This document shows positions 1-54,100 of a DNA stretch of 64,000 nt, piece after piece (positions within the stretch are counted from its first letter, which is position 1; each line of letters begins with the position of its first letter). The notes under the pieces are model-generated. The model was given only the letters and a program-made list of their open reading frames with translations, was not told the origin of the DNA and did no database searches. The DNA lies in assembly GCA_040954595.2 (NCBI GenBank), contig CM082582.2, forward strand, positions 3,208,303 to 3,272,302, given 5' to 3'. The stretch is from Balanoglossus misakiensis. Taxonomy: Eukaryota > Animalia > Hemichordata. The position numbers were made by a program, and so were the translations under genes.

Positions 1-3000
1 TGCACCAACATCTCCAATTTTATTATGACTAAGATCCAGGTGTATCAGCTCAGTCATTTTCCCCATCCCTTTACCTAAACTCTCTGCACCAACATCTCCA
101 ATGTTATTATGACTAAGATCCAGGTGTCTCAGCTCAGTCATATTCCCCATCCCTTTACTTAAACTCTCTACACCAACATCTCCTATGTTATTATGACTAA
201 GATCCAGGTGTCTCAGATCAGTCATATTCTCAATCCCTTTACTTAAACTCTCTGCACCAACATCTCCAATTTTATTATGACTAAGATCCAGGTGTATCAG
301 CTCAGTCATTTTCCCCATCCCTTTACCTAAACTCTCTGCACCAACATCTCCAATGTTATTATGACTAAGATCCAGGTGTCTCAGCTCAGTCATATTCCCC
401 ATCCCTAATTTACTTAAACTCTCTGCACCAACATCTCCTATGTTATTATGACTAAGATCCAGGTGTCTCAGCTCAGTCATATTCACCATCCCTTTACTTA
501 AACTCTCTGCACCAACATCTCCAATTTTATTATGACTAAGATCCAGGTGTCTCAGCTCAGTCATTTTCCCCATCCCTTTACCTAAACTCTCTGCACCAAC
601 ATCTCCAATGTTATTATGACTAAGATCCAGGTGTCTCAGCTCAGTCATATTCCCCATCCCTTTACTTAAACTCTCTGCACCAACATTTCCAATGTTATTA
701 TGACTAAGATCAAGGTGTCTCAGCCCAGTCATATTCCCCATCCCTTTACTTAAACTCTCTGCACCAACATCTCCAATGTTATTATGACTAAGATCCAGGT
801 GTATCATCCCAGTCATATTCTCCATCCCTCTACTTAAACTCTCTGCACCAACATCTCCAATGTTATTATGACTAAGATCCAGGTGTTCCAGCAAAGTCAT
901 ATTCTCCATCCCTTTACTTAAACTCTCTGCACCAACATCTCCAATTTTATTATGACTAAGATCCAGGTGTCTCAGCTCAATCATTTTCCCCATCCCTTTA
1001 CCTAAACTCTCTGCACCAACATCTCCAATTTTATTATGACTAAGATCCAGGTGTTCCAGCCAAGTCATATTCTCCATCCCTCTACTTAAACTCTCTGCAC
1101 CAACATCTCCAATGTTATTATGACTAAGATCCAGGTGTCTCAGCTCAGTCATTTTCCCCATCCCTTTACCTAAACTCTCTGCACCAACATCTCCAATTTT
1201 ATTATGACTAAGATCCAGGTGTCTCAGCTCAGTCATTTTCCCCATCCCTTTACCTAAACTCTCTGCACCAACATCTCCGATATTATTATGACTAAGATCC
1301 AGGTGTCTCAGCCAAGTCATTTTCCCCATCCCTTTACTTAAACTCTCTGCACCAACATCTCCGATATTATTATGACTAAGATCCAAGTATCTCAGCCAAG
1401 TCATTTTCCCCATCCCTTTACTTAAACTCTCTGTACCAACATCTCCGATATTATTATGACTAAGATCCAGGTGTCTCAGCCAAGTCATTTTCCCCATCCC
1501 TTTACTTAAACTCTCTGCACCAACATCTCCGATATTATTATGACTAAGATCCAAGTGTCTCAGCCAAGTCATTTTCCCCATCCCTTTACTTAAACTCTCT
1601 GCACCAAAATCTCCGATATTATTATGACTAAGATCCAAGTGTCTCAGCTCATACATATATTGCATGCGCATCCCTTTACTTAAACTCTCTGTACCAACAT
1701 CTCCGATATTATTATGACTAAGATCCAAGTGTCTCAGCTCATACATATATTGCATGCGCATCCCTTTACTTAAACTCTCTGTACCAACATCTCCGATATT
1801 ATTATGACTAAGATCCAAGTGTCTCAGCTCATACATATATTGCATTCGCATCCCTTTACTTAAACTCTCTGTACCAACATCTCCGATATTATTATGACTA
1901 AGATCCAGGTGTCTCAGCTCAGTCATATTCTCAATCCCTTTACTTAAACTCTCTGCACCAACATCTACGATATTATTATGACTAAGATCCAAGTGTCTCA
2001 GCCAAGTCATTTTCCCCATCCCTTTACTTAAACTCTCTGCACCAACATCTCTGATATTATTATGACTAAGATCCAAGTGTCTCAGCCAAGTCATTTTCCC
2101 CATCCCTTTACTTAAACTCTCAGCACCAACATCTCCAATGTTATTATGACTAAGATCCAAGTGTCTCAGCCAAGTCATTTTCCCCATCCCTTTACTTAAA
2201 CTCTCTGCACCAACATCTCCGATATTATTATGACTAAGATCCAGGTGTCTTAGCCAAGTCATATTCTCCATCCCTTTACTTAAACTCTCTGTACCAACAT
2301 CTCCGATATTATTATGACTAAGATCCTGGTGTCTCAGCTCAGTCATTTTCCCCATCCCTTTACCTAAACTCTCTGCGCCAACATCTCCAATGTCATTATG
2401 ACTAAGATCCAGGTGTCTCAGCTCAGACATATTCCCCATCCCTTTACTTAAATTCTCTGTACCAACATCTCCTATGTTATTATGACTAAGATCCAGGTGT
2501 CTCAGCTCAGTCATATTCTCCATCCCTTTACTTAAACTCTCTGCACCAACATCTCCAATTTTATTATGACTAAGATCCAGGTGTCTCAGCCCAGTCATTT
2601 TCCCCATCCCTTTACCTAAACTCTCTGCACCAACATCTCCAATGTTATTATGACTAAGATCCAGGTGTCTCAGCTCAGTCATATTCCCCATCCCTTTACT
2701 TAAACTCTCTGCACCAACAACTCCAATGTTATTATGACTAAGATCCAGGTGTCTCAGCTCAGTCATATTCCCCATCCCTCTACTTAATCTCTTTGCACCA
2801 ACATCTCCAATGTTATTATGACTAAGATCCAGGTGTCTCAGCTCAGTCATATTCCCCATCCCTTTACTTAAACTCTCTGCACCAACAACTCCAATGTTAT
2901 TATGACTAAGATCCAGGTGTTCCAGCAAAGTCATATTCTCCATCCCTTTACTTAAACTCTCTGCACCAACATCTCCAATTTTATTATGACTAAGATCCAG

Positions 3001-4150
3001 GTGTCTCAGCTCAATCATTTTCCCCATCCCTTTACCTAAACTCTCTGCACCAACATCTCCAATTTTATTATGACTAAGATCCAGGTGTCTCAGCTCAGTC
3101 ATATTCCCCATCCCTTTACTTAAACTCTCTGCACCAACATCTCCAATGTTATTATGACTAAGATCTAGGTATCTCAGCCCAGACATATTCTCCATCCCTC
3201 TACTTAAACTCTCTGCACCAACATCTCCAATGTTATTATGACTAAGATCCAGGTGTTCCAGCCAAGTCATATTCTCCATACCTTTACTTAAACTCTCTGC
3301 ACCAACATCTCCAATGTTATTATGACTAAGATCCAGGTGTATCAGCTCAGTCATTTTCCCCATCCCTTTACCTAAACTCTCTGCACCAACATCTCCAATG
3401 TTATTATGACTAAGATCTAGGTGTCTCAGCCCAGTCATATTCTCCATCCCTCTACTTAAACTCTCTGCACCAACATCTCCAATGTTATTATGACTAAGAT
3501 CCAGGTGTTCCAGCCAAGTCATATTCTCCATCCCTTTACTTAAACTCTCTGCACCAACATCTCCAATGTTATTATGACTAAAATCCAGGTGTATCAGCTC
3601 AGTCATTTTCCCCATCCCTTTACCTAAACTCTCTGCACCAACATCTTCAATGTTATTATGACTAAGATCCAGGTGTATCAGCTCAGTCATTTTCCCCATC
3701 CCTTTACCTAAACTCTCTGCACCAACATCTCCTATGTTATTATGACTAAGATCCAGGTGTCTCAGCTCAGTCATATTCTCCATCCCTTTACTTAAACTCT
3801 CTGCACCAACATCTCCAATGTTATTATGACTAAGATCCACGTGTCTTAGCCCAGTCATATTCCCCATCCCTTTACTTAAACTCTCTGCACCAACATCTCC
3901 AATGTTATTATGACTAAGATCCACGTGTCCCAGCCCAGTCATATTCCCCATCCCTTTACTGAAACTCTCTGCACCAACATTTCCAATGTTATTATGACTA
4001 AGATCCAGGTGCATCAGCCAAGTCATATTCTCCATCCCTCTACTTAAACTCTCTGCACCAACATCTCCAATGTTATTATGACTAAGATCTAGGTGTCTCA
4101 GCCTAGTCATATTCTCCATCCCTTTACTTAAACTCTCTGCACCAACATCC
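1..4150 (-). repeat. Coding 84-bp minisatellite (~49 units) encoding 28-aa ribonuclease-inhibitor-type LRRs
   Basis: Unit tgcaccaacatctccaat[g/t]ttattatgactaagatccaggtgtctcagctcagtcatattccccatccctttacttaaactctc. Its reverse complement reads ESLSKGMGNMTELRHLDLSHNNIGDVGA. Three 90-bp variants at ~1600-1870 and one 87-bp variant at ~405 all keep the frame. Confidence 0.95.
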
Positions 4151-7100
4151 CCAAAATGACAACCACTAAGTTTCAGAGTTTGTATAAATGAAAGAATACT
4201 TAATCCTTTACAGAAGTCTTCAAATTCAGCCTGACTCCACTGCTTACTTACTTCCAGATTTCTACACTCTTTGACAACTTTGTTTATGAATATTAATTTA
4301 TCTAGAGTGAGACTGTCATCATCTAAATTGACATCATGAAAGTATATCTGCAGTGCCTGGGGAATGTGTGGTAGGATGTACTTTAGGCCTCTGATTTCAT
4401 TGCCAGCAACATTGACAATTTGTATTTGATTCTGTGGCACAATGTTCAACAAACCAACTATTCCTCTCAAACTGATACCTGTGTTACTAAAATTAACATC
4501 AGTGAGATATTTCAGTATATGCAGTTTCCCACCCATGTACTTTATGCCATCATCTCCTATGTTATTTGAACTGACGTCTAAATGTCTCAGAAACAACAGA
4601 TGCTCAAAACTATCAGCAACAACTTTAGAATTATCAGAAGTAAAACCAGACTCTGTAATAACTAAATGTTTTAAGTTCTTGAAGAAAAACAAATTTAAAC
4701 ATAGCAAGTTGGTAATTTCAGGAGATAAACTTGAAACATGTATTTGTTCTACAGAGTTTCCTTTCTTCTGCAAATTGAAAATGTCACCCACAGTTTTGAA
4801 GTGACACTTCACATGGGATTTGAAATCTCCAACCTGGTTTGCAATCTGTTCACACTCTAACAACCTTTCAAGACTTTCTTCCACCCCATTATTCTCCAAC
4901 AGAACATTGAATTCATCAACCAATGGTAACAATGCCATACACCCAAGGGAACCTAACTTGTTGTTTGAGACATCTAGATCCTTCAGAAATGGAAAAGATT
5001 TGACAGCTCTCAAAAGTACATCAATAAAGGTGTATTCTAAATCATTATGTGGCAACTCCAACTGTCTTACTTTTAATGAAATCTTTTCATTTACCATCCT
5101 TTCAAAAACCTTTGTGATAAACACATTATTAAATCCAGTGAAATGGAGTGATTTCAACAGAGGCAGTGATCCCAATGCTTTGACAAGTGCCTGAATTGTT
5201 TCATGACCAACATCCTGAAAGTTGTCATCAACCGCTTCAATAGTCACACTTCTCAGACTGACCTCACTATGACCTCTGACAGATTTATGTGAGTGAGCCA
5301 TTAAGAGTTGATGGAATGTGATATATCTAGTGACCACAGTCAACTCAGTTGAGTTTTTCACTTGAAATTTGACAGTTGATGATGGATTTTCAATCATTAC
5401 ATTCAGGTGTTTGTTGAACTCCTCTGAAAGGTATGCCCTTTCCTTATCACTTGTCAAATTGATTTTCTGAACAATAGTTGTGTTCTTTAAAATAAATGAT
5501 ACTTCACCTAAACTTTGCAGAGAGACTCTATTTAAATCAACGGCTGACAGATCTAATGGCTGTCGTTTTAACAAATGCTCAATAATTACTGTAAACTTTT
5601 CTGGACATTTTGTTTCATGAAGGCAACCAGCAAGTAGTGCAAAATAGTCATACCTTACTGGATATGACTTTCTTAAACATTTTGAGAGTACTTTGAAGAA
5701 AAATGTATCCTTGTTCTTACCCACAAAAGATCTAAAACGCAAAGCAAGTGGTACTCTGAAGGAAAGTGTTGTTTTATCCTTCATCATACTTGACAAAAAA
5801 TACAGAGCAATAGGCATGGACATCAAAATGGTCTGAATTCTATTCTGTTCCAAGAATAAATTTTTGTTATTCTTCAAATACACAGCAACTGCATAAAAGT
5901 ATATATACCGGCTCAAGAAGTGATAATTATGTTTCTTTTTACCCCTTTGAAAACTATAGTACTCGTATCTTACTCGACTTTTTCTTACCAAATTAAAGAA
6001 ATACTTCTCTTCATGACTGCTGTCAAACCAATGGTCCACAATTGTGTCTTTTTGACTTTTAAGAAATTCTTGTTGCCCAATTTCACAAAGCCTGTTCTGC
6101 ACTACATGCCAGACATTCTCTATCTTAAGTTGATGTTCCCTACAGTACATCTCTACATGATGTTTAATTGCATATTCAGTTGCCTCTGTCAAAGTTGATG
6201 GTAAAGTGTAACAATTCTCATACCAGTAAGACACAAGAGAAGGAAAGAAAAATTCTTCTGATCTTAATTCACCCACAATTGGATGAAATCTGGACTGCTG
6301 TATCAAATACTTAGCTTGGCTGTTCTCTTCTACATGATCTAGTACATATCTCTCCCATTCATTGCATGCAACAGTTCTCACCCAGGTCTTCTCAGGGATG
6401 GTGTAGACAGCAGACATATCTGATAGAAACAAAAAAAATTGTCTACATGTAATTATGCTCAATATATTCAACAGACATAATACACACAAAGATGTTGTTT
6501 GGCCTGCACTCTTAATTAAGTGTCATTCAGTGACATAACTACATGTAGTTAAGAACATTGTCAACAGTAGAAGGTCAGTGAAATCTTGATCAATTTTATC
6601 CATTTCAGCAGTAGTCAATGAAAATGAAATTCAGTGAGCACAGAAAATGTATGTCTGCCTTGAGGCAGCTTAGATACATTGCTGTCCTCAAGGCAGATTG
6701 GTAGATATACATTATGCAATGCTGTATATAAGCATATATGAATATGTGAAAAGTATGAATGATGCATTATCAAATTGTGCAGACTTAAATACTCACCATG
6801 AAGTATGTGTTTGACAGTCTCATACTCGGATTCAACGATCTTCATTCTGATTCTGACAACACATCCAGCTTTCTCTGCTAGGGATATCATCTCCGATGTT
6901 ATTAGGATACCACTCAGCATTTCATCAACTTCTCCAGCTTTGTATTTCTGCCAGAAATAATCAATGTCTTCCTCCGAAAGGAAGCTTAGTAAGAACCACA
7001 AAGAGCTTTGCACAACTCCATCAAGTCTTGCTTTGTACTTTTCAAAGGCTTCATCTAACTGTTCTATTAGATCTGGGTCATCTCTGTCCATGATTTTCTT

Positions 7101-9777
7101 TATCTGACGTTCATACATTGCTGTTATTTGATTTAATAAAATTTCCTTCTCCTTGATCTTAATCTCTGCTTCCCTGTCTTTCTGTTTCAGTTCAAATTTC
7201 AAGTTTATTATCTTTTGTTTAGCTTCATGCTCAATCCTTTTCTGTTCTGTTTCATGGTCCATCTTTTTCTGTTCCGTTTCAAGCTCCATCTTTTTCTGTT
7301 CCGTTTCAAGCTCCTTTTTCTTGTATTCTGTTTCCACTCTCATCTTTTCCATCTCCATCTTCATCTTTTTTTCTTCAAATTCCAGATTTACTTCACAATG
7401 AACAGCTATGGGTTGAATAAACAATGAAACAGAAATAATTGTCAGCTGGATGATGACTTTTGCTGCCAGACTTTTATGCTACAAGTGAAATGATCAAGAT
7501 ATAAACCACTGATCAAATTATATTTTATCTCCCAAATGAGTAATAGAATTTCATCCTACATCAAGTGCCACTGTGGTTTAATATCAAAACATGCAACTGA
7601 CCACATCCCTAAGCCATCCGTCATCTTTGATATTTGGGACAGGATTAGATAAAATGTCTGCTGGGTAAATGTCCAGGGGGTGACTGTCCTAGAAACTTGA
7701 GTGTTCAGGATATATTATTGATAGATGATGGGAAAGGAAGATTCTGTGAAATCATGAAAGAGTACAAGACAGGAAACATAACTTACTTGGCATCAATGGC
7801 CTTTTCCGTTGTATCAACTTTGATTTGTGAGTTTCACTTGTTGGTTTCTCATCTGAAACAACAGGAGATGCTGGACTGCCTGTAAGAGAAACGATTCAAT
7901 TTTTAAAATGACAGCAGTTCATGGTGAAAAAGAGTGTGTATTTTTAACACTACTGGTCCAATCAAAGAAAGCAATCAAACTGTACTTACCAAGGTTTTGT
8001 GGCTGGGGTGAGAGTGACTGGGAAGAACAGGCATATTCAAAACCTCTTACACCTTCATCAGTTAAAGGACTCCTTACATTATGGGTTGGTGATTTGGGAC
8101 TTACCGTGATCACTAGAGAATAGAAAAATAAAGTTTAATGACTGACAGTTGCATTTAAAATCTTATAACGAGATTACCAGTAATAAAAATATGAAGTGTT
8201 AAAAATTACATATTGCAGGGGACAAAGGCCAGTTTTCATTTCTGTATTTCATGAACATTTGTTTCTGTAATTAGTTTAATCTTTAGGAGCCTGCAACTTA
8301 TAAAATAAATTGTACTTACTCGGGTTTTCTTGTTTGGGTGAGAGTGACTGGGAAGGCTGGCCATCTTCAAAAGTTGCAAAACCTTCACGAGTTGAGGGAG
8401 TCTTTCCATTCTGAACTGGTGATTGAGGTGTTGGAACTGGAAGAAAGAAGCCAAAAATCAATGACTAAAATTCGTAATCTCACGTCTTGTAATAAAACGA
8501 ATGAGATTATGAAAATTTACACTATTGGAAGGAAACTAACACATTTTGTTTTGGGATTGTGTGTGGAAAAGGAAATACTTACTTTGTGCAGGCTGTGTAC
8601 TTGGGACCTCTTTGAAACAAGCTCTGAACTTTTCATGACTGTCAGAAATCTCTGTGTGACTGAGATACATATTCTTCAAACATGTCGCCGTGGGTATTGC
8701 ATGTGTTGCTCTCAACATCTTATTGATCTGTTTTGATAAACACCCATCAACAGAAGGATCATACATGAAGTACTTAGCTTCATGGCCTAGATATGTGTTC
8801 ATGAAAGCTGCTAAGGCAGTTCGTTCCGGAACTAACACAGGTAGTCCTGCAGCAATGGATCGTAATCCCTCCATCCTGAATGGCTCATCAGGTGGTATAA
8901 TACAGACATTACTCTGACGTAAATCTCTGTAAATATCATCTTGAGAGCCGTATGAGGGATAAATGTTTGGTTTTATGTGCAGACAATTTAAGTTGCGTGT
9001 AAGAAGAGTATTTGTGTTAGCAACATCAGCTTCCGGGGGAGTACGTACACACCACAATGGAACCGTCACGTGCATAGAGTTGAATGTACCAGCTGTTTTT
9101 CCAACTTCAGCTGCCAGTGTTTTATATCGTGGGGATTCCACGGCTGTATCAGATATCACAGTCAGGATTTGTTTCAAGGCACTTGTTTTTTCTATTTGAT
9201 CCACATTAACATCAAAGTATTCTTTCTCTGGTCTCGGAAGATACAATTCATGTCTTACAGGAACTTCAGTTGTTTGGTAGAATTTCTTGTAATGTTCAAA
9301 GACATCTGGTCCAACAGAGAAAACTGCAGATGCCTCCTCAGCAAATTTGATGTTATTGTCTTGTACTTCAACTGATGGGATGGTGTGATTGATGAGGATA
9401 ATCTTAGCATCTTTGAAATATCGTTTCCTCAAAACATTTGCAACCAGGAGCTTTGCTGAAGGCTTGACATGTTCCACAATGAATTCCACATTTTGTAACT
9501 CTGTGAGGGTTGTAAAGTAGGCCTCTGGTACAAGAATCCATTTTGGAACTGGCTCATCTTTTCCAAAGACATCCTCGAGTTCGTCTCTCAAACTTGGAAG
9601 TATCAACTCAACTCCACAATCAGCTGCATCTCTCCTTTCTTCGTCACTTGCCTCCAAAACAACACAGCATGTTTTATGTTGTCTGTCTTCGGCTACACTG
9701 CTGGCAAGTTGACAGTTGAGGGCAGATACAGTGTCCTTAACACGATTCCACTTTTCAGCCAAGAATACGGTAGTCAT
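1..9777 (-). CDS. Giant NLR-like protein: GT4 glycosyltransferase-like + coiled coil + TRADD-N-like + NLR helical domains + >50 RI-like LRRs (3' end beyond window)
   Basis: Hand-spliced exons 9777-8583, 8436-8320, 8112-7990, 7879-7787, 7405-6797 and 6419-<1, all GT/AG and all phase 1. This gives 8556 nt = 2852 codons; I found no stop when reading the frame. Motifs: TTVFLAEKW...DEPFRMEGLRSIAAGLPVLV (GT-B); SSLWFLLSFLSEEDIDYFWQKYKAGEVDEMLSGILIT (TRADD-N-like); YHFLSRYIYFYAVAVYL, ALYFLSSMM and GCLHE (winged-helix/HD2-like); LRHLDLSHNNIGDVGAESLSKGM repeats. Confidence 0.85.
6797..7405 (-). CDS. Exon encoding heptad coiled coil plus TRADD-N-like domain
   Basis: 21-bp tandem repeats at ~7230-7340 encode (ETEQKKM/ELETEQK)n. 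They are followed by a SSLWF...FWQKYKAGEVDEMLSGILIT...RMKIVESEYE segment that resembles the TRADD-like_N family as I recall it. Confidence 0.7.
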
Positions 9778-9791
9778 TTTGGTGATTTGAC
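8583..9791 (-). CDS. Exon encoding GT4 (GT-B fold) glycosyltransferase-like domain of the GT4-conflict type
   Basis: Acceptor ttccag at 9792, ATG at 9777, donor gtaagt at 8582. Motifs VFLAEKW, CVVLEASDEERRDAADCGVELILP, IILINHTIP, AVFSVGP and CIIPPDEPFRMEGLRSIAAGLPVLVP are typical of GT domains fused to invertebrate NLR-type and repeat proteins. Confidence 0.8.
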
Positions 9792-10317
9792 CTGGAAAGT
9801 AAGAAAATCTCTTAAGGTAGGAACAAAAACAGACAGCAAGACAATACATCAAAATTTGCATATTCATAAAAAAATTAAAACATTATGACCAACCCTATGC
9901 TATTTCATTATGGTTACAGAGAACTGTATTCGACACTTGGATGAAAGCACTGCATGTATTCTGTTGATGAAACTTTATGGCCACACCCTTTATAAAGTTC
10001 GTGATTGCATTAACTTTTTTCTAAATATATAAAAGTTCAGAAACTTCCGTCATCTGTGCGACTACAATAAATTTTTAGACTGACAGATTCAGTCGAGTGC
10101 CTTTGACTAGGTCAGGTGAGAGACCCCCCCCCCCCCGCACACACACACGAGTTTTTCATTACAAAATTTATTTGTAAATATTTTACCACAATGCTAGAAA
10201 TTTCAAAATTCTGTTTGCGCGTAATTCGCCTAGTTCAACCATGGAGGCGGTACCTCTTGCTTTCAACTTCCCAAAACCACCGTTTAAACGCGGGTTTCGT
10301 TTGGAGTAATTACTCAC

Positions 10318-10645
10318 ATGACTCAGAGGCGATTATTATAAATCATTTTCTGGACCGCGTCCGTACGTGTTGTACCAGTCGAATTTTCTTTGAAGTGTAC
10401 CGACTTTGAACACAAAAATCTAATACTTCGAAATTTCATTGCGACGTCTGCTTATCGCATCAATTTTCTAGAACACACTATAATACGAATTATGATACCA
10501 ATTTTCCTCAAACGAAACGTGTGTTGTCAAAAACGAAAATTTAATACGAGGAAATAGCGAGGCTTTTGTGACCCCAAATGACCTCTTTCCACCTGTTTGC
10601 CTGTTGCAAAGAAGATTTACCGGCTTAGTTTTCGGAAATTCCTCA
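10318..10645 (-). promoter_or_regulatory. Putative non-coding first exon and promoter of the NLR-like gene
   Basis: Minus-strand donor gtgagta at 10317-10311, AP-1 heptamer TGACTCA at 10319-10325, kB-like GGAAATTCC at 10634-10642, and local CpG enrichment. Confidence 0.3.
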
Positions 10646-11529: not shown

Positions 11530-14308
11530 CTATTGGGAATTTTTGTGTGACGTTCTATGTCTCCACAATGCAGTGTCGCTGTTCAGACACTGTCCACAAA
11601 TCTCGCACTTGAACGGGTTTTTCTCCAGGTGGATCTTCAGGTGGCGTGTGTAGCTTTTCTTCCAAGTGAACGTCTTCTCACAGTGCTCGCATTGTATCAG
11701 GGATTCCTTTTCCTTGGAGCCGTCTTTCTCCTGCACTTCATGACCTTGACACTGACCTTTGTGATCCTTCACCTCGAAGCGCCTGAGGAACGCGAGTCCG
11801 CAGACCTCGCACTTGAAGTTGCGTTCCCCATGCACGGCCATGTGTTCGCGGAGGTTCCCGGGGGTCAGGAAGCGCTTGCCGCATCTCTCGCAGCTGAACG
11901 GCCGTACGTTGGAGTGTTTTCTGAGATGGTACCGGTACACACTCTTAGACGAGAATTCCTCACCACATTTCCCGCACCTGAAGGGTTTCGCTCCTGTGTG
12001 CACCCGCTGGTGTTCAACCAAATAATACTTATGCTTGAATTTCTTATCACAGTATTCACACGAGTACGGTTTATCGTCAAAATATTTCTTCGTGTGATCC
12101 AGCAAGCGACTGCGAGTGATGAAGTTCTTCTTGCAGATATCGCACTGATAACGCGAGCTGTCTAAGTGTTCATAACTGTGAACTTTAAGCGACTGTTTAT
12201 TCTTGTAGGATTTTCCACAATCGCTGCAGACAAAGGTCGCTTCATTTGAAGGCTGTTTATGAGTGTCTGGCAAAGCGATATTTTCATCACAGTGATGACT
12301 GTTTGTCTGTTGTTGTTGTTTGCGGTGTGTGTTAATGTGACGATACAATGACGTACGAAGCATCGTCTTCCCGCATATTTCGCAGGAAACTCGTTGACGC
12401 TTTGCGTTCTTCGGAGTCTCGGGGATGCTGACGTCATCGCTTGAGCCTGAGCAACTGTTGGCAAAGTCGCTGTCTTTTTCGTTCACTGTGACGTCATCAT
12501 CCTCATCTATCTCGCTGTAACTGTGCAAAGCTATGCGTCTCCTCTTGGCCAACCTGGGTGACTGACCAGACGAGAGATTGGAATCGTCACACTCTCTGTT
12601 ACTATTTAGGCAGCCATATTCTTCAGGAGCACTGGGTGTCTGTCTGTCGCCATTACGATTTTCTACAGCATCCTGGGTACTCTCATCCACCTGTTTTCCA
12701 TTCCTCTGATTGACATCACCATGTAAACCATCACTATGGTGACGCTCGTCATGATCTTGGTCGCACAAAGCGTCGCCTTCTTGTATCCTCGTTGCGCGCC
12801 TTGTTGACAAGTCGAGTGGGAACCTCTCGCCAGAGATCCCATCCTCAGTCTGCGCATGCGCGTAAACTGACTGGCCAATCAACGGCTGATGTGAATCGCC
12901 ATCAGTGTAGCCGTCACCTAGTTCTTCCTTTACTCTGGTCTCATCCACACGCAGAGGTCCATTCGAAGAAACATCACACGCAACCCCATCCGCCATTTCT
13001 GCGGGTGTCTGTTCACAGTGATACCTGGTTGATCTGACGTCACTTCCTCTTGCTTCCCCTAGAAAGTCTCCATCGTCTACAATAAGTCCATTTCCAATGT
13101 TGCAAGCATTTTCAATTGCACTTTTTGCATCCAATGCACAGTCCGTACTATTTAACCGATACGAGGCAGCACCGACACTTTCTTGGGAGTAGCAAGCGTC
13201 ATCTACGTCACAATAGGACACCCGTCTTTCGCCAGACTCCCCACTGATAAAATCTCTTGAATTTGCATTTCCTTCATAAGACAAGAAATCTTCCTCCGTT
13301 AGCTCCAACTTCACTCTGGGTGCATCTTTCCCTGGTTTGTCGATTGGCTCAATGCATATATCTGGTTCACTACATGTACCACAAGAGTTTTCAGTCATCT
13401 GTGAGATTTGGTCCCTAACGCAGAAATTAATGACATCATCTTCTCCGGGAATATGGTATTCCTGTATGAAGTAATCGTCACTCTCCGGGGTGCTACACAC
13501 GGGCTCTTCCGTGACGTCACCACTTCCAGCGTCGCAAGTGTCGCCATAGTTACCACAGCGCTCGTCTGCAGTGACGTCAACAGTATTAACAGTCACAACC
13601 CCACGTGGTGCATAAATAGCATCAGTGCCCTCCCCACAGTCAGTAACGCCACCAGTACTGTGATGACCATGGCCAGAATCTAAATAAACACCTTCAGTTT
13701 TGATGCAATTGTCCCATAACCGAACTTCAGAGGGCGCAGCTGTCTTTACTGAGCCAGTATCGATGTTAACACTTTCGGCTTGGACGCAAGCGTTTATATT
13801 TGAGCCTGATCCACATTCAGAAATTTCAAACACATTTTCAAAATCTGGTTCTTCTTTTATTCTTATGTTGTTGGGAACATCCCTACAGTTTCCGACAGAT
13901 TCGCTGACTTGTGTGCTGGTCTCGTCAGATTCATCCTCGATGTCTTCATTCAAATCGCACGCCTTCAGTTTCATTGCGACCATTCCAGTCTGGCAGAGGA
14001 AATTTAAAATGTTGGTCCATTCTGTCGAAAGAAAATATTAAATTGTGAAAACTTTATACTTTTTATGGGTTGTTGTGTTTTATTTACACAAAAATGACAC
14101 AATGAGAATCGGAATGAGGTTTCCTTGCACTAACTATGCCATCACTCAGATAAATTACATTTTCAAGTAAGACGAGAGTGCACACCTTTCGCTGAAGTCC
14201 TGTTCTCGTCCAGTCTTGACAGAACTTCCTTACTCGCCCGGTGGAAACATCTCCCGATATGTTTGATGAACTCGGTATCTGTTGCTTCCTGCCAAATCAG
14301 ATCGCAAT
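11530..14308 (-). CDS. C2H2 zinc-finger protein (~9 fingers) with acidic N-terminal region and PLDLS CtBP-binding motif; 5' exon not located
   Basis: 817-aa ORF with CxxC...HxxxH fingers and HTGAKPF/HSNVRPF linkers. The large exon starts at acceptor 14022; an in-phase upstream exon lies at 14308-14186 (DCDLIWQEATD...). PLDLS is at 12819-12805. Confidence 0.9.
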
Positions 14309-14597
14309 CTGATAAATAGATCAAAACAAATTGTTTAACTATTTTCAATCAACTTATGTACTAGTATTTCCTTGTTATACACACAGGTGTCCAATACTGG
14401 TATATTATAAATATATAGTTTTATATAGTATATTGTCCCTTTGTCGCACGCAGCCCTAGGACAGTCGCTAGTGGTGTTGTATATACGCTGGACAATGATA
14501 GGTGTACATGTATATATGCCATCTCGGCTAACTGTCCGTCTAATTGTCTGTCCATTGTTATATTACGGGTCTCTCATCATACCAGCGCTATTCAATC

Positions 14598-15094
14598 AAT
14601 TTTGGTGTCTTTCTGGTCAGACTTTAATATGTCTAGTTTGTAAATGACCAATGGCTTATAGCATGGTACACACCCATGGGAGAACTTTGGTCCAAGACAA
14701 ACACGGATGTTAAGCAGAGTTACGTAATCTTCAACGAACCTTTACTAAAAACAAATACGATCTTATTTGCACAACAATGTAACAGCATAGAATATTGTGG
14801 TTCGTATAGCGTCATTTACGATATACGTGCAAACACAGCAAGTCCAATTTTGATGTCTTTCTGGTCAGACTTTAATATGTCTAGTTTGTAAATGACCAAT
14901 GGCTTATAGCATGGTACACACCCATGGGAGAACTTTGGTCCAAGACAAACACGGATGTTAAGCAGAGTTACGTAATCTTCAACGAACCTTTACTAAAAAC
15001 AAATACGATCTTATTTGCACAACAATGTAACAGCATAGAATATTGTGGTTCGTATAGCGTCATTTACGATATACGTGCAAACACAGCAAGTCCA
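14598..15094. repeat. Near-perfect 248-bp tandem duplication
   Basis: Identical ORF starts at 14676 and 14924 (offset 248); the sequence is repeated almost base for base. Confidence 0.95.
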
Positions 15095-31590: not shown

Positions 31591-34500
31591 TTATGTGCGT
31601 GAGCGAGCCATGTTGACTGCGCGTGATTCAAGAGCAGACGACATGTGCTGCAGCCGTAGGAAGAAAAAATAAACAAAACGCCAGTCGAGGACAGATTTGG
31701 AAATTAATAAATATCGCCGTATTTATTCTGTGTACGTTTGCATTTCTTTTTTTAGCCCTTAAAATGTTCGCATTGTTTGAAATCCTCCGTTATTCAGTCG
31801 GAAATTGTACACGTCCACTGGTTCTTGGGCGCGTCGCGCGTCCATCGAATAACACGATACATTATCAGTAATAATGTATAGCTATGACGTCACAAAATCA
31901 CTGGTATTGATAAAGCTATAATATAATGGTATATAATCGCACTAAATAATGAAACACAATACTGTCGATATAAAATAGGGCATAGGTCACTGGCTGAGCT
32001 TGCGTGGATATTTCTCGCCAAATGTATTCATATCGTAACAACGTACTTGTACGATGCAATGTAACATGACTTAGAAGGGGTGGTTGCGTTTTAAAACTTA
32101 CTTCTGTCTTGTCCCTGAGCTGTTTAGCTGACTCCAGTAAATTTGAGAAGATCGGTCTGTCATTGGGATCCTTTCTCCAACAAGAAAGCATCAGATCATA
32201 CCTAAACAAAAGATCAAGTGTGTAACAACACATCCATCCTGCATACTGTAACAATAAATCCAATTTGTTTGCAATCCTGATGTAACTATTTAATAAATTT
32301 ACCAAAAATGACATTTTGTCAAATTAATTAATATTATGTTTTATCACACACGAAACTGTGTAACACCTTCAATATAAGTGTTGCGCGTCCGAAACCTATT
32401 CGAGGAAATTGTTCAATGTGGAAATTTCCACTGGCAATGTAAAACTATTTGTTCATTTGATTGACTATAGCTTTCCTGGAAGATGCGTGTTCGCCCAAAT
32501 TAATATTTAAATTGCTTTGCTGTTCCACTTACATCTCATCGCCACAGTGTTCTGGTTTGGGCAGCCTGTAACCGCGTTCGAGCCTCATAATAACTTCCTT
32601 TCGTTCAAGTCCTTCGAAAGGTCTATGAGCTGAAATGAAGAAGAATGTTGATTTTCCAAACACTCCCTCTGGGAAAGGAGAGTACCATATGAATGTCCAA
32701 TTCTACCTCATCCATGTTGTCTGTCTCGTCCCTGTCCCTGTCTGTCTATGTGTCTATCTAAATATCTATCTGTCTGCCATTTTTATCAGAGTATGGTTCC
32801 CTCTGTTTCTGTCTGAATCTTTTTTGTCTCTGTTCCTATATGCCAATCTGTCACTCTTTTCCTGTCTGTCCTTCTCATCCATAATATCTGTGTGATTGCA
32901 TTTCACAGCACTCTTGGAGGGCTCAATTTAGTTAGAAAAAAACGAATATAATTACCTAAGGTGACTATTTCCCAAAGCATAACACCGAAGGACCACACAT
33001 CTGTCTTTACATCGAATGTCCATTTTGTGAGTGTTTCCAGTGCTAACCATTGGAATGGAAGTTCATCCTGTTAGGAGAAAACTAACCGATCAGAATAAAT
33101 CACTTTAAATTAAGTTATGAAAATGAAAATCAATAATCAATGATTTAATCAATGGGAGTACCTTCTTTGCTAAGTCTTGTAATCTTCCTTCGTAGGTAAC
33201 GTCACTTGTGTAGGTGAAGTTAGAAATTTTGCACGTTCTCCCTGTAAATACCAATATGTGTTTTGCAGCAAGGAACCTGTGTATGATCTGTGAAATAAAC
33301 CAAGTGTTGCATTGTCTATAGTGAATAAAAAACTATCACCTATAATTAATCTAAACCAAAAACGCAAATCAGGACAATTACTGTTTGGCCAATGTGTGGT
33401 GGTACAGTGACAACAGCATAGACATTGGAGAACTTTGATACTAGGAGCAAAAATATTGTTCAGGTGGTCAGATGTTTGAATCGCCTATGCAAGCAGCGCT
33501 CACTGCGTACACTGATTGCTATCTTACCCCCAATGACGAAAGGTGCTCCATGCCACTAGCAATGTCGGCAGCAAATGAAAGTAATTGTCTTTGGGAATCC
33601 ACACTCTCATCTGATAATATCTCTGGGCTATTTTCGATCAGGTATTTTCGCAGATTTCCATGTTCTGCGTAGTCAGTCATGTAGAACGGTGGGTCTGAAA
33701 TAAACGTTTGTATTCATAGACATGTATATTGGCACATCTAATTATGGTATGCTCTGCTGAAACATCCAACACGGCATACTACATACGTGAATTCGTTTCT
33801 TTGTTTGCGATATACACTCTTGTATATTCATCATATACACTAGAGACTTGCAATGACTTGTTTGTCTGCATTTTGTCGATTAAGAAATCAATACACATGC
33901 GGACAGATTATTTCTACCAATGGCTCACTGACCACAGTTAATAATTGCTATAAACGTCCTTTCCTACACACTGACCTTTACCCCAACCCTCCTCGACCAA
34001 GAAAGGTGACCCAGACACAGTCTGATGTCAGCTAATCCTCTATGATTTACAAGGAGCATTTGATGTTGAAACTACGAGTAGGTGTTCCCAAATAATTTTA
34101 CTTTCAAAACCTTGAATAAATATCAATCTTATCAACGTAGAAGTGTAAAGGCGATCTAACATAAATATCCATTCCATGTGTATTTTACCAACCAAAATAT
34201 CGTGTGGAGAACACGTAACGTACAGGCGAGTGATGCAAATGAAGAAAGAACGATGGAAACAACTTACCGTGTTCTGTAGAATATGCTAAAAGGCTAACAA
34301 CATTGGTGTGTAGTGGTATGGATTTCATAAGCTCCACTTCTCTCTCCAGAGCTGATGTATCTGTTGTCTCACCTTTGAAAATTATAATACACATGTGAAT
34401 TAATTGCACTATCAAGTAAAAACCATCAATACCAATCTAAACATTGGCTCCTGAACGATAAACTACATGAAAAACGATCCCACTACATTTGTGAATTCAG

Positions 34501-41183: not shown

Positions 41184-43809
41184 TTTGGGCATCGGATGTA
41201 TCACCAACAATGTCCCCAGATATCAAGTCCACTGCCCCAATCTCATCGACTAGGGTAAAGACTAGTAGTTATAATACAACTACCGTTAGTGTACCAATCA
41301 ACGACGCAGGAAACGACACAACAACAGTTTATCTAACAACTGAAGAGATAATCGGTGAATATTCTTCAAAGACAAGGCAAAACGTCGACCCCAACGCTAC
41401 AGCGTTTAACAATGGAACAAGTTTAGTGGGCTCGAACACCAATTCTGAGATTTCAACCCAACCCACCTCAACCCTCTTGGAAATGAGTAAGCATACAATT
41501 TTCAAAGAGATTAACACAACGTGATAAAGCTCAGCAATGTGAATTTGAATAACACGTTATTAATATGTGTTAATACTCACTATTCCGAGCCTAAAAACAA
41601 ACTAGGTATTAATTTCGAAGCTATCAGAACAGACAGAGTAAAGACAGAGGGACAGACATACAGACAGACAGAAAGACAGATGACCTTTTTGACACAGATA
41701 TAAATGGGATATATTTATGGTTCTCCACTTATATAACATCACTCGTGTCTGTATTTTTGTTTATCTCTTTCTTTTGAAAAATGGCATTTGGCAGTTCTAG
41801 TTATTGTTCTCTTAGTTCAATCTTTAAAAATGTATTGCAGATGGCAACGTGTCTACAGCAACAGGTCCATCATTAGCACATATAACCGGTCCTCTTCGTG
41901 GTGGTCACGTGGTAGTAATATCCATTATGCTAATATTCATAATTGTACTGCTAGTGATTGCAATAATATTGTCATTTCTCATCGCAAAAAACTGCAAGGC
42001 AAGAAGTGAGTACCATGTTGTCATTTGTATATAGTTTGTCAATATTTTTAATACCTAGTTAGGGCAAATTCATGTAAAACTGGCGCAGTATATTTCACAA
42101 AGATCGTCTCATCAGAAATTGGTCAATTGACGAAAGTGCCAAACTTGGTGCGTTTTCCCATTAAATAAGATTTTACTATATTTCAGTATAAATTGATTAA
42201 CAGTAGTAATTGCTAAGTACGTATTTGATAAAAGGAAACATTTAATCAGGGTCTATTTTCCCCCACAGGGAACAAACGCCAACAGGAAATGTGAGTATTT
42301 AAGATTATATGCTTTAGATATTTGTGTTTATTTCATTTCATACCAAAAGGATCCATTTGCTGAAACTGCTTGTAATGTTTCTATCTCCTTTTTTCGCATT
42401 GAATCTAGATACAACACACGTGTAGAAGCTCACGATGCAGGTCAGTTTGGGGAAAGTTTGTTTTTCATTTTCACCATTGATGGATGATGACAGTGTACTA
42501 TGAGTCAAAAATCAGTGCTGTCAAATAGGCAGGTCAACTAACTGTTAAATTACTTCCTGTGTCAGGGATACCCTTGACAACCCTTGCAGAAGGATTGCCA
42601 AGACGAACTCGCCGAATGAATGAATATGTGGACATAGAATCTCTTCTACACTCTACCCGAAAGAAAACGAGAAAACGTCATGCAAGCAAAGGTGAGCCTG
42701 AGGGGGGGGGGGAGAGAGAGAGAGAGAGAGAGAGAGAACAGACAGGCACATAGAGACAGTAGGAGAGAGCCAGAGGGAGCCAGAGGGAGAGACAGAGACA
42801 AGGGAAGAGAGGGAGGAACATAGAGATAGTGCTTGGTGACCTGCTCTACCGGAAATGACGTAAATGAACATACATGTATTTATTCCAGCGGAGAATGGCA
42901 GATCAGTGGTTTATGACAATACAATGTATGAAAATATCCCACCTGCTGACGAAGACAAGGAAATAGACGTGGCGGCATTTTACCAAAATATGGGAGGTAT
43001 AAAACAATATGTGTACTCTAGATGTTTGTCCTTGTGTCCTTGGTTACTCGTTCTTGTGGGTGTTGGAAGTGATCCAAAATATGCAATTCAACATAATGTG
43101 ATAGTTTTTATTGTTCGAGATTAGTTTCACTCATGGATAGAAACTGTTGCTTTAATATTTACAAGGGTTTGAAATATTTATGTAACACAATGGGCCATTA
43201 AATATTGGAATACGTCCTGGAAGCATTAACCAAACATAAGTTCATCATTGAGCATATGATGCGAAGAATAGTCATATGTTATACTTGAAATACATGATGG
43301 AATTATTGTCAGGTATTATGTTCTTACTTGTAATTTGCTTGTCTCCACATATTATTTTTTTCTTTCCCTTCATAGGTTATATTCTATTACACGATTATTC
43401 TGGAAGTGATACTTCACAGGATTACAGAAATTGTGGAGAGCTGGTGGATTTAGAAGTGAACGATAAAAACCCTGAATCGAACACCAGCAGTCACTGCACA
43501 TTAAGCTGTGAACCCATTTATGGAAATTTGCCTCTTCAGAGAGAGGTCACATCACAGTACGAAGGGCATTATAACTTACTCCAAGAACCGAATTGTAGTG
43601 GCGTTATTAAACAGACATGCAATAGCGATAATGACAGAAGTCCATCTTATGAGAGCGCACCCCTTTTGCCCTGTCGCTGTCAGGGTGGTGGCGTATATGG
43701 CGATTGCGTCTCCCCAGAACAGTCAAAGAAGAGAAGAGTCTCTAAAGATTCCACGACAGATACTGGTGATGTAAAGATACACATTTATGAAAACCTACCG
43801 CTTATATAA
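41184..43809 (+). CDS. Single-pass transmembrane adaptor-like protein: Ser/Thr-rich stalk, TM, tyrosine-motif-rich tail
   Basis: Exons 41184-41486, 41841-42005 (VVVISIMLIFIIVLLVIAIILSFLIA), 42269-42290, 42409-42440, 42566-42691, 42889-42996 and 43376-43809 splice in phase. The tail has YVDI, YDNT, YENI, YQNM, YRNC, YGNL and YENL. The start is uncertain (ATG 41210 or an unfound exon). Confidence 0.8.
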
Positions 43810-51183: not shown

Positions 51184-54100
51184 CTACACAGTTGTGTCCT
51201 CGTGTTGAGCTTGGTCACCATTATCTGTGAAACACACCACAACATAGCATTTAAATACTGGCTCCATAGCACCCAATCTGATATAAATATCACTATTATT
51301 TTTTAACACATCTGAAATTTATATTATTTGTTTATTCCCAACGCCCTAAGGGTACTCGACTTTACGTTAACAACATTGGAATAGGCCACAATGTAAGAGT
51401 TAGAAAGAAGACAAATTTCAAAAACAATTCTAACTATCTTGCTGTGTATAACATATACAAGGAAGTAAATAAACAGCCAATTATCCCCACCTTCTGTAGT
51501 TTGAGATCTAGCAACCGCATCATATGAGAGTGACCTTTTCCTTGCGATAATGATACCAGTGATGATGGCGAAGGAGGTGACACTGAACACTGCAAAAGTC
51601 GAGCCGATAATTACACCAATATTAGCTGCACTAGTATCCGTAATGGTGTAATCTTGAACTGAAGAAAACCAATTTATTAATGTAAAATGTGTAACCAGAC
51701 TAAAGTTTTCACTTATGCTAATGTAATAAAACAAAAGAAATGTTATACCATTGACAATAATTGGAACTTGATCAGTCGACCGATTTTCCATAAGTTCACT
51801 TAACCTAATAAGACTTGGCTGTCGATTATATGGGCCATTTCTAACCATGGGAGAGGTTGACATACCTGAGGACGTGTTCAAACAGACTTGGGTGGCGTCA
51901 AACTTGGTTCCACTTAGTAATTTTGGCTGAATGACACTGCACGTCAAATTGGTCACATCCTGATCATCACAGTTACTTGTATTATAGTTGTAAATGCTTC
52001 TGCTGTCTGCCGTTCCATTACTGTATGTAGTCAGTACTTCTCCTTCATCAGGGATCACCGACACATTCAAAATCCACTCAAATTTAGCTGGCGGTTTGCC
52101 CCTTTTGGCTACACATGTGTAGTTCCCATCTTCCGATATTTTAACGCTTGCGACATGAACTAATATAAGAAGATAAGTTGGTTAAATGCTAGTTGTAGGC
52201 GTATGATCGTTACCATTATCTGTTCCTTTAAATGCGACATGTAATATGCATTTCTTTGTTACTGTATTCACACACAAAAACAAACAAATAAACAAACAAA
52301 CAACTAAACTAGAATTTTTCCTGACTCTATATTTCAACTGTTTTACGTTTTTTATTCAATTCGATATCTTCACATGAATATGGAAAATTCCTAGCATGTA
52401 CAATTTCAGAAATACAATTTATGTTATCTTTTGATTTATACTATATTTTCATTTTTACTGAATGATGTATGTCTATCAAGAACAGCATTTACAAATATAA
52501 TTTTTGAATTTAGACTCAGTTATCAAAATATAGACTTTACCGTTGTATACAAAATTTTCATTCGCCCTATATTATCTGATTTCTTGATTTTTCCCATTTT
52601 TTATTTGCTTCCTACTCTTCTAATGTGTATATTGCACTCAGGCTGTTAATGACTTACCTATGATCTCTAGATAATTGTTCTTGTTTTGTGGAATTACGTC
52701 TATTTGAGTGCATTGCCAAGTACCTTCGTGTTTGTCTACGTCAACACTATGGATATACAAGTTGTAAAATTCAGCTGTTCTGTCTACATGGCAACATTCA
52801 CTGTATACCGTCTCCCCTTCAGCAATATGATTAAAGTCACCATCTATGGTAATGTAGTTCCACTGTGGAGGCGCAGAACCTGCACTGTTGAGTTTGCACT
52901 CAAACACGACGCTTTCACCTTGCACTGCTTGTCTACGATTGGATAAAATATCAACATTTACCTCTCCTGCAAAATGAAACAATAAACATACCAGACGAAT
53001 GCAGTTCAGAGATATTTAAGAGATAACATACGATCCAGCTCACCATTTAAACATCTAATAGAAGATAATATTAAGTAAAAATCCATATTGCCCTATTTTT
53101 AGAAAACACAGTCGAGCAAGAGCAGAAATTTTCAACTTGATGAAAAATTTAGCTGTGGTCGACGTTTATCGCAAATTACATCCTTATGAGTACAGGTATA
53201 CCTGGAGACGTGGCAATTCTGCGTCACGCTTGGATTATTTTCTAGTTTCCAGAAATTTAGAAAGAAATATAAAGGACTGCAAAATCACCCCTTCAGTTAA
53301 TACTGACCACAGTGCCGTTACTCTAACATACAATTATGAGCAGCATGCTGATCGGGGCCCAGGGTTTTGGAAACTGAATTTAAGTCTCTTACAAGATGAA
53401 AAGTACACGGAAATGATTAAAGATCTAATACATGAGAATGTTAATCGGTCAGACGCAGGGTCGGTACAAAATACTTGGGAATATTTAAAATACAAAATAA
53501 AAGATAGGTCTATAAATTATTCAAAGCATAAAAAGAGAGAGAACAAAATACTTGAAGAGAACTTATGGAAGTCACTTTGTGAATTAGAAAAAAGTCTACA
53601 CAATGATTTGAATGACGATGCTGTCCTTGAATATGAAAAGGTTAAATTAAAATTAGAACAGTTGTGGGAAAATGAAGTGAAAGGGGTTATGGTAAGATCA
53701 AGAATCAAATGGTATTCCGAAGGTGAGAAGAGCTCCAATTTTTTTTTTAAATTTAGAGAAGCGAAACCATGACAAAAAGTTAATTTCAGCTTTAAAGTCT
53801 GATAATGACGTGTCCATAACGGCTAACAAAGAGATACTCAAAGAAATCAAGAGCTACTATGAACATCTGTATACCTCACGTAGCCCCACCTTTGATGCGG
53901 AAATGGTTGATTTGTTCTTTAACGATTCGGGTGTCAAAAAATTGTCTGATGAAAAGAGCAATTCTCTTGAAGGCCTTTTCACAAATTCTGAAGTTCTTGA
54001 AGTACTGAAGTCAGCACCCAAGAATAAAACTCCTGGGAGTGATGGACTACCAGCCGAATTTTATATTGCTTTTTGGGAAGACATTGGGGATATTTTGGTT

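What the first reader, a model, noticed from the sequence alone, without database searches (positions are those of the whole stretch)
1..4150. An 84-bp satellite that is an open reading frame: ~49 homogenised LRRs in one exon
Seen: the unit length is a multiple of 3, I found no stop on the minus strand, and every length variant keeps the frame (+3 nt at ~405 giving SKLGM; +6 nt three times at ~1600-1870 giving GMRMQYMYE). This points to selection on the protein despite DNA-level concerted evolution. Known: RI-type horseshoes of ~15-16 repeats already span most of a circle. Inference: this array would need to form a multi-turn superhelical solenoid, and a coding VNTR could produce allelic or somatic variation in repeat number and order in an immune sensor.
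Basis: partly seen in the sequence, partly recalled or inferred. Interest (0 to 1): 0.85.

Follow-up and report, generated by a model that had tools for sequence, protein, structure and literature searches.

The report
ATPase-less NLR with giant LRR array
The 84-base array is a real, stop-free reading frame of at least 49 near-identical leucine-rich repeats at the end of a likely acorn-worm gene that is predicted to keep the back half of an NLR immune receptor but has no ATP-binding domain, so it likely binds its targets and signals without the ATP switch that NLRs normally use.

Summary
The array is real: 49 units of 84 bp (1-4154), one stop-free minus-strand frame, running off the window. 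It ends exon 6 of a six-exon gene (2,852 codons, no stop): GT4 domain with a degenerate EX7E motif, TRADD-N, then a region whose model matches NLRP3, NOD2 and NLRC4 from the first residue of HD1 (Z up to 15.8), then about 55 LRRs. Only 26 residues separate TRADD-N from HD1, so the nucleotide-binding domain is absent. The gap is 21-36 residues in 20 of 23 acorn-worm and amphioxus relatives; none has a Walker A there. GT4-TRADD-N-LRR proteins are published (PMC8195603); I did not find the NBD-less NLR remnant described. Four length variants all keep the frame. Multi-turn LRRs (NLRC5 model) and homogenised sensor repeats (fungal NLRs) have precedents. Expression, allelic or somatic variation and function are untested.

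The parts
1..4154 (-). Array of at least 49 homogenised 28-residue RI-like LRRs (84-bp unit), open at the window edge
   Evidence: Pfam LRR_6 E 8.6e-65 on ten units
1657..1926 (-). Three adjacent 90-nt units (+6, one event copied twice)
   Evidence: the same variant is in contigs of runs X1 and X2 (table 5c)
394..480 (-). One 87-nt unit (+3)
4155..5070 (-). Seven older, diverged LRR-like motifs ahead of the array
   Evidence: motif scan of the gene model, residues 1163-1468; LRR_6 E 5.4e-13
5464..6363 (-). Predicted HD1 - winged helix - HD2 of a NACHT module, without the preceding nucleotide-binding domain
   Evidence: model pLDDT 83, pTM 0.82; aligned to NLRP3 from residue 374, NOD2 from 428, NLRC4-complex chain from 301, NLRP1 from 483; NLRP3 HD1 = 373-434 (PMC9505260)
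1..6419 (-). Coding exon 6 (acceptor AG at 6421-6420, phase 1), holding HD1-WHD-HD2 and all LRRs; 3' end outside the window
   Evidence: junction HILH-D-MSAV matches relatives
6420..6796 (-). Intron 5, 377 nt, GT-AG; too short to hide an NBD (longest stop-free stretch 60 codons)
6797..7405 (-). Coding exon 5: predicted TRADD-N domain (core 6819-7076) with a coiled coil inserted after its first strand
   Evidence: own profile E 7.7e-36; the model of relative P0007 aligns to TRADD-N 1f2h, Z 6.7, residues 81-227; Pfam TRADD-like_N hits only relatives P0028 (E 0.0006) and P0069, not the window exon
7787..8436 (-). Coding exons 2-4 (8320-8436, 7990-8112, 7787-7879), Pro/Ser/Thr-rich linker, all phase 1
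8583..9777 (-). Coding exon 1 from the likely ATG: GT4-conflict glycosyltransferase-fold domain; EX7E-equivalent motif at 8860-8886 reads E-PFRMEGL-R
   Evidence: PF20706 E 1e-24; motif lines; relatives start at the same M

Best explanation
The array encodes the LRR end of a GT4-TRADD-N-HD1-WHD-HD2-LRR protein that has no nucleotide-binding domain, and the protein likely works as an ATP-independent intracellular immune sensor whose binding surface is likely lengthened and reshuffled by unequal crossing-over and conversion among the 84-bp units. Shown: intact six-exon frame, domain order, 26-residue gap between TRADD-N and HD1, no Walker A, same design in acorn-worm and amphioxus gene models, recombination signal among units. 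Predicted from models: identity of HD1-WHD-HD2 and TRADD-N. Inferred: without an NBD there is no ADP/ATP switch and no NBD-built wheel, so HD1-WHD-HD2 remains as a rigid base and N-cap for the solenoid; about 55 LRRs would need roughly two to three turns; ligand binding on the LRRs (most variation lies at the descending-loop and strand-entry positions 27, 28, 2, 3, 5, picked after seeing the data) would be relayed through TRADD-N to death-fold adaptors, as family members carry DED, CARD-TIR or Death domains at the N-terminus; the GT4 domain is likely a non-catalytic binding or scaffold module.
For: Gene model: five GT-AG phase-1 introns, 2,852 codons, 0 stops, collinear with P0070 (45% over 1,425 columns) and P0005, P0001, P0002. 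Structure: 10 of the top 11 VIA rows are named NLR entries and one is a cytoplasmic-lattice chain (Z 7.9-15.8, five above 13; next unrelated row 6.2), all starting at model residue 16-19; Foldseek best hit NOD2 E 8.7e-4. In the spliced relative P0007, TRADD-N ends at 227 and the NLR match starts at 246. Sequence control: the HD profile hits true NACHT proteins just behind their NBD (P0027 from residue 167, Pfam NACHT 1-174; P0061 from 267, NACHT 96-252). 20 of 23 proteins with both domains have a 21-36 residue gap, the other 3 (one amphioxus gene) have a Death domain in it, 0 of 23 have a Walker A there. No Pfam NACHT in 20 of 20 closest relatives scanned or in P0001, P0002. Quick tree: 24 NBD-less rows against 8 NBD-bearing rows, SH-aLRT 98. 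Recombination. GT4 second Glu replaced in 6 of 6 sequences (R, W, D, Q, Q, W); role of EX7E from PMC8760489.
Against: No ligand, partner or immune role was tested. dN/dS among units is about 1; clustering of replacements on particular codons is marginal (P 0.05-0.08; top two codons P 0.20) and common replacements are not significantly rarer at core positions (Fisher P 0.30), so diversifying selection is not shown. Concave-face positions 8, 10, 11 are invariant, unlike a classic hypervariable LRR surface. Most relatives have unhomogenised LRRs (longest run 1-4 units in 15 of 17; 6 and 12 in two Glandiceps proteins), so the giant array is not needed by the family. Tree outgroups are few, long-branched, and include no acorn-worm or amphioxus NACHT; the careful search did not finish. 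All relatives are computed gene models. The relative importance of the two Glu residues varies among GT4 enzymes, so GT4 inactivity is not proven.
Confidence: 0.5

Rival explanations
1. The gene is a functional family member but the array length is a near-neutral by-product: once a few LRR units became near-identical, unequal crossing-over inflated them and selection only keeps the frame and the hydrophobic core.
For: dN/dS about 1; single-copy core changes such as L7Q, G15R, G15E, G15V are tolerated; invariant concave positions include silent sites; relatives mostly lack the array; many 85-95% contig variants suggest redundant paralogues; relaxed selection on new repeat copies is general (PMC5120217 abstract). 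Compatible with the NBD-less anatomy.
Against: 31 replacement against 3 silent steps outside the nine core positions, and codons 3 and 5 carry 6 and 5 different codons with no silent change; a further codon-5 variant appears in contigs (linked changes at 4096 and 4098).
Confidence: 0.3
2. The protein is a trans-acting brake or decoy for complete NLRs: its HD2 and LRRs would clamp or cap the NBD of NBD-bearing NLRs, or it would absorb pathogen inhibitors aimed at them.
For: It keeps exactly the parts that restrain the NBD in autoinhibited NLRs (recalled for NLRC4; the fold match is) and lacks the active part; complete TRADD-N+STAND+wHTH proteins are listed for Saccoglossus, Branchiostoma, Acanthaster and corals (PMC8195603 supplement 4).
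Against: A brake on host proteins would be expected to be conserved, not multi-copy with a recombining LRR array; N-terminal DED, CARD-TIR and Death domains in relatives look like outputs of their own.
Confidence: 0.12
3. The GT4 domain is an active effector enzyme that is switched on directly when the LRRs bind a target, as proposed for GT4 conflict domains.
For: GT4-conflict match E 1e-24; the first Glu of the motif is kept in 6 of 6; proposal in PMC8195603 passages.
Against: Second Glu lost in 6 of 6 and the motif's third position is R or S in 5 of 6; many relatives have no GT4 at all.
Confidence: 0.08
4. The array length or order is an assembly artefact, or the copy is a young pseudogene.
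For: The array runs off the window, so its end and stop codon are unseen; the only runs found come from one sample and may be the assembly's source; no read spanning the array could be examined.
Against: Longest exact internal repeats are 200 and 154 bp, 38 of 44 units are distinct, the window-specific +6 variant is in contigs of both runs laid, and all six exons are intact.
Confidence: 0.08

Closest known systems
GT4 + TRADD-N (DEDD2 clade) + LRR proteins of cephalochordates, hemichordates and cnidarians (Kaur et al. 2021, PMC8195603; passages, section 11 and searches of supplement 4 seen)
   Same: Same outer architecture and same animal groups; lineage-specific expansion; proposed immune role.
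   Different: The paper lists either STAND+wHTH+helical-region+LRRs or TRADD-N+LRRs / +helical-region+LRRs; 'DEDD2+wHTH' has 0 hits in the supplement searched and 'HD1' 0 in the text. The HD1-WHD-HD2 remnant without NBD and the homogenised array were not found described there.
NACHT-type NLRs (NLRP3, NOD2, NLRC4, NAIP, NLRP1)
   Same: Predicted HD1-WHD-HD2 fold followed by RI-like 28-residue LRRs; N-terminal adaptor or effector domains.
   Different: No NBD, no Walker A, so no nucleotide switch; identity to solved NLRs only 8-15%.
Human NLRC5 LRR domain (homology model, PMC3848420, passages seen)
   Same: Very long RI-like LRR domain, modelled with 43 repeats as two full circles.
   Different: NLRC5 has an NBD and diverged repeats (longest near-identical run 1 in bird NLRC5 P0057); the paper speaks of separate LRR-coding exons; here at least 49 near-identical repeats lie in one exon.
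Fungal NLRs with high internal repeat conservation (Podospora het-d/het-e/het-r; Dyrka et al. 2014, PMC4986451, passages seen)
   Same: Sensor repeats under concerted evolution, shuffled within and between genes.
   Different: Those are WD, ANK or TPR repeats (no LRRs found in fungi), keep the NOD, and show length polymorphism and positive selection at defined sites; here neither polymorphism nor positive selection is shown.
Unnamed NACHT-LRR proteins with long homogenised LRR arrays (P0020, P0061)
   Same: 31-42 LRR motifs, many at least 80% identical to another; a run of 21 in P0061.
   Different: They keep the NACHT; runs are shorter than the 48 here.

Membership tests
NLR (NACHT-LRR) | Nucleotide-binding domain with Walker A and B (PF05729) | tested here: not met
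   No [AG]xxxxGK[ST] in the 2,852-aa model or in six frames of 4150-10000; no NACHT hit; 26-residue gap and 377-nt intron
NLR (NACHT-LRR) | HD1 - winged helix - HD2 | tested here: met
   Predicted model aligns to NLRP3 374-783 (Z 15.8, rmsd 4.7, 263 aligned) and NOD2 428-779 (Z 14.1, rmsd 4.5, 267 aligned); profile hits true NACHTs behind the NBD
NLR (NACHT-LRR) | C-terminal RI-like LRRs | tested here: met
   consensus as in PMC4598782
NLR (NACHT-LRR) | Nucleotide-dependent oligomerisation | not testable with these tools
   Inferred absent from the missing NBD
GT4-TRADD-N-LRR proteins (Kaur 2021) | GT4-conflict domain before TRADD-N | tested here: met
   PF20706 E 1e-24, above cut-off
GT4-TRADD-N-LRR proteins (Kaur 2021) | TRADD-N domain | tested here: met
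   Relative's model aligns to 1f2h at Z 6.7, rmsd 4.2, 110 aligned, a middling score; own profile links the window exon to P0028 and P0069, which have Pfam TRADD-like_N hits; no direct Pfam hit on the window exon
GT4-TRADD-N-LRR proteins (Kaur 2021) | Placement in the DEDD2 clade of TRADD-N | not tested
   No TRADD-N tree built; relative P0075 is the gene listed there as DEDD2 clade (LOC109479656)
Active GT4 glycosyltransferase | EX7E motif | tested here: not met
   Second Glu is R in the window and W, D, Q, Q, W in five relatives; register set by eye against a recalled consensus; motif role from PMC8760489
NLRs with hypervariable homogenised repeats (fungal HiC type) | High internal identity with recombination among repeats | tested here: met
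   92% nt identity; 35 of 55 site pairs incompatible, some of which may be recurrent mutation
NLRs with hypervariable homogenised repeats (fungal HiC type) | Positive selection at defined repeat positions | tested here: inconclusive
   Non-core dN/dS 1.2-1.6 on pooled dS; overdispersion P 0.05-0.08
NLRs with hypervariable homogenised repeats (fungal HiC type) | Repeat-number polymorphism between alleles | not testable with these tools
   One sample, contigs only

The most novel reading that the evidence does not exclude
An old, unrecognised class of NLR-derived receptors, shared by acorn worms and amphioxus, has dropped the nucleotide-binding domain cleanly at the HD1 border, put TRADD-N in its place, and in some lineages uses a coding satellite of 50 or more LRRs as a recombining, multi-turn binding surface whose length and order differ between alleles or cells: an animal, LRR-based, ATP-free counterpart of the hypervariable fungal NLRs.
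Probability: 0.3. Interest if true: 0.82.

Novelty: new variant of a known kind. Interest (0 to 1): 0.62.

Why it matters
NLRs are defined by their nucleotide switch. A multi-gene family in two deuterostome phyla that keeps HD1-WHD-HD2-LRR but not the NBD would show that the regulatory-sensor half can be used alone, and such genes are missed by NLR censuses that count NACHT hits. This member also offers a natural test of how far an RI-like solenoid can extend (at least 49 uniform repeats, four times the longest run among 17 relatives) and of whether coding satellites diversify immune sensors in animals as they do in fungi.

Tried and rejected
No whole genome is held, so the end of the array, paralogue count and NBD-bearing NLRs of the same animal could not be examined. 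No RNA holder listed. Sequence searches of PDB with the HD region and GT4 region gave nothing useful; the full-length profile only returned LRR proteins. Pfam found nothing on the HD region or exon 5. The Atlas gave weak leads only (first hit 0.91, unnamed; NACHT-associated bacterial clusters at 0.88-0.90). The 'longer' profile search returned only P0001; no NBD-bearing close relative was found, which is weak evidence given their limits. Absence of stops as evidence of selection was rejected. The single 'stop' allele and the codon-5 silent change are artefacts of scoring multi-hit codons against a majority unit; mis-scored one silent change and had two exon ends off by one base; one search corrects both and its figures are the ones used, except the four-gamete, neighbour, exact-repeat and GT4-motif results, which come and are unaffected. 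The dN/dS of 3-5 for 'edge' codons was rejected as circular. Summed contig depth over the unit is about 100-fold above the flank but the tool states this is no copy number, so it is not counted. P0075, listed as STAND in the supplement, has no HD hit and is no ancestral-state control. Literature searches that found no description of an NBD-less HD1-WHD-HD2-LRR family or of this array: (open-access library only; 12 of 13 supplements of PMC8195603 not searched and file 4 is marked as cut, so an annotation there may have been missed).
Full report
Observation. The array is at 1-4154, period 84, 49.2 copies. One of six frames is free of stops, on the minus strand, and belongs to an open frame from 6522 to the window edge. 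There are 49 LRR units: 44 of 84 nt, one of 87, three of 90, one cut. The 44 regular units are 38 distinct sequences, on average 92% identical in DNA and 84% in protein. The count is a minimum because the frame runs off position 1 and no genome is held.

Is it real DNA? The longest exact internal repeats are 200 and 154 bp, so the array is a mosaic of variants, not a block copied by the assembler. Contigs of two runs of one sample, laid on one and a half units plus flank, contain the window's own +6 variant and further length variants: an 81-base unit in both runs and another 90-base unit in one; two other joints give 84 and 168 bases, and one has an unknown insert (tables 5 and 5c; lengths worked out by me from the joints). 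The table of insertions and deletions lists none inside the unit. None of the 11 substitution rows shown inside the unit makes a stop (one would alone, but has the same depth and contig count as a second change in the codon, giving Trp); 47 of 87 rows were not shown. These runs may be the assembly's source and are not independent. No read spanning the array was examined.

Selection on the array. With distinct alleles counted once there are 10 silent and 37 replacement steps, dN/dS 0.97-1.33 by transition bias; 0.8-1.3 stop alleles are expected, so none has P 0.27-0.45. Pairwise dN/dS is 0.96, bootstrap 0.39-4.7. Nine core positions, taken from the recalled RI-like consensus (also given in PMC4598782), hold 6 of the 37 replacement steps, fewer than their share (P 0.034), all in one or two copies; the contrast in common alleles is not significant (Fisher P 0.30). 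Clustering of replacements on codons is marginal (P 0.05-0.08). The three +6 units are one event, so the window has two independent indels; with the two from contigs, 4 of 4 keep the frame (about 1 in 81 if each had one chance in three). Recombination is indicated by 35 of 55 incompatible site pairs and by neighbours being more alike than shuffled order (P 0.0002). Verdict: frame and core are probably kept by selection, the rest is relaxed or mildly diversifying, in line with the general pattern in PMC5120217 (abstract seen). Variation is concentrated at positions 27, 28, 2, 3, 5, 13 and 23-24, while 8, 10, 11, 12 are invariant.

The gene. Six coding exons on the minus strand (9777-8583, 8436-8320, 8112-7990, 7879-7787, 7405-6797, 6419 onward), five GT-AG phase-1 introns, 2,852 codons without a stop, collinear with Ptychodera and Glandiceps models at 32-45% identity. 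Exon 1 is a GT4-conflict domain whose EX7E-equivalent has lost the second Glu in the window and in 5 of 5 relatives (motif role from passages of PMC8760489). Exon 5 is a predicted TRADD-N with an inserted coiled coil. Exon 6 holds the rest. Named homologues are from Ptychodera flava, Glandiceps talaboti, Saccoglossus and Branchiostoma species; the window gene groups with Ptychodera proteins, so the animal is likely an acorn worm. Of 1,048 contigs of run X1 laid on 4200-10500, 452 are under 95% alike, which suggests many close paralogues.

The missing ATPase. The first 340 residues of exon 6 have no Pfam or PDB sequence match, but their model (pLDDT 83) matches NLRs: NOD2 first by Foldseek (E 8.7e-4), and by VIA against 48,161 chains 10 named NLR entries and one cytoplasmic-lattice chain fill the top 11 rows (Z 7.9-15.8; next 6.2). 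The match starts at NLRP3 residue 374, and HD1 of NLRP3 is 373-434 (PMC9505260 passages). In the model of the spliced relative P0007, TRADD-N spans 81-227 and the NLR match begins at 246, with a low-confidence linker between. With two profiles built from 11 aligned sequences and run on the 75 proteins then stored, 23 had both domains: 20 have a gap of 21-36 residues (14 Ptychodera, 1 Glandiceps, 5 Branchiostoma), 3 isoforms of one amphioxus gene have 278-279 with a Death domain inside, and none has a Walker A there. The profile members match by construction; the gap does not depend on that. As a control the HD profile hits P0027 and P0061 just behind their Pfam NACHT domains. In the window the gap is 26 residues and the intron is 377 nt. 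A quick tree of 32 rows separates 24 NBD-less from 8 NBD-bearing rows (SH-aLRT 98); left out were five near-duplicates, two short hits (P0014, P0032) and P0039; the outgroups are long-branched and from other lineages, so a single loss before the acorn worm-amphioxus split is suggested, not shown. Deletion from a complete GT4-TRADD-N-STAND-LRR gene (listed for Acropora) and capture of the 3' part of an NLR exon by a TRADD-N gene are both open; two earlier unchecked notes on this genome describe the same front half with other tails, which would fit capture.

How exceptional is the array? Among 17 NBD-less relatives the longest run of near-identical units is 12 and 6 (Glandiceps, same repeat type) and 1-4 in the other 15; among 12 other LRR proteins picked for many repeats it is at most 21; here it is 48. 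Public models may be collapsed, so this overstates the gap. Published NLR LRRs have about 20 (NLRC4, pitch 32-34 A), 25 (NLRP1) and 31 (NLRX1) repeats per turn, the last two nearly flat (PMC4598782 section 8). About 55 motifs would make two to three turns and need an NLRC4-like pitch; this is arithmetic, not a model. A two-circle model exists for NLRC5 with 43 LRRs (PMC3848420 passages). Homogenised, shuffled sensor repeats are known from fungal NLRs, of WD, ANK and TPR type (PMC4986451 passages).

Mechanism. Most likely (0.5) an ATP-independent sensor: LRR solenoid on an HD1-WHD-HD2 base, output through TRADD-N, GT4 as a likely dead module, binding surface renewed by recombination. The anatomy is well supported; the sensor role is inferred from the family (PMC8195603) and untested. 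The main rival (0.3) accepts the anatomy but sees the array length as near-neutral inflation.

Novelty. The outer architecture is published. The NBD-less remnant was not found in seven literature searches or in four searches of one supplement; other supplements and subscription papers were not seen. It works like an NLR sensor half but fails the defining NBD test, so it is filed as a new variant of the GT4-TRADD-N-LRR kind, derived from NLRs. Interest 0.62.

Noticed in passing
window 7224-7348: A second in-frame coding repeat in the same gene: 27-bp unit, 4.6 copies, lengthening the coiled coil inserted in the TRADD-N exon.
   Followed up: no
window 6797-7405; P0007 residues 84-232: In the model the first TRADD-N strand precedes the coiled coil, so the coil is an insertion inside the domain.
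   Followed up: partly
window 4200-10500: Hundreds of contigs at 85-95% identity lie on the gene, suggesting a family of close paralogues in this genome.
   Followed up: partly
P0071 (Branchiostoma floridae, 903 aa): An older gene model that lacks the HD1-WHD-HD2 stretch present in newer relatives P0033 and P0063; it has the length and layout of a protein listed as CARD+TIR+TRADDN+LRRs in the supplement, which may explain why the remnant was overlooked.
   Followed up: partly
P0075 (Branchiostoma belcheri): Listed as TRADD-N+STAND in the supplement, but by eye its P-loop domain looks GTPase-like and it has no HD hit.
   Followed up: no
P0043, P0023 (Branchiostoma lanceolatum): NBD-less amphioxus proteins with Death domains and long higher-order LRR repeats interrupted by a recurring non-LRR insert.
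   Followed up: partly
window 11530-14037 (-): Single long ORF of a C2H2 zinc-finger gene directly upstream, same strand.
   Followed up: partly
window 53062-56286 (+) and 56671-57718 (-): Broken LINE-like retroelement pieces (endonuclease and reverse-transcriptase-like, by eye).
   Followed up: no
window 31916-32323, 51324-53015 (-) and 43252-43809 (+): Exon-like pieces resembling an Ig-domain receptor tyrosine kinase, and a tyrosine-motif-rich tail on the other strand (by eye).
   Followed up: no
window 14597-15094: Near-perfect 248-bp tandem duplication (99%).
   Followed up: no
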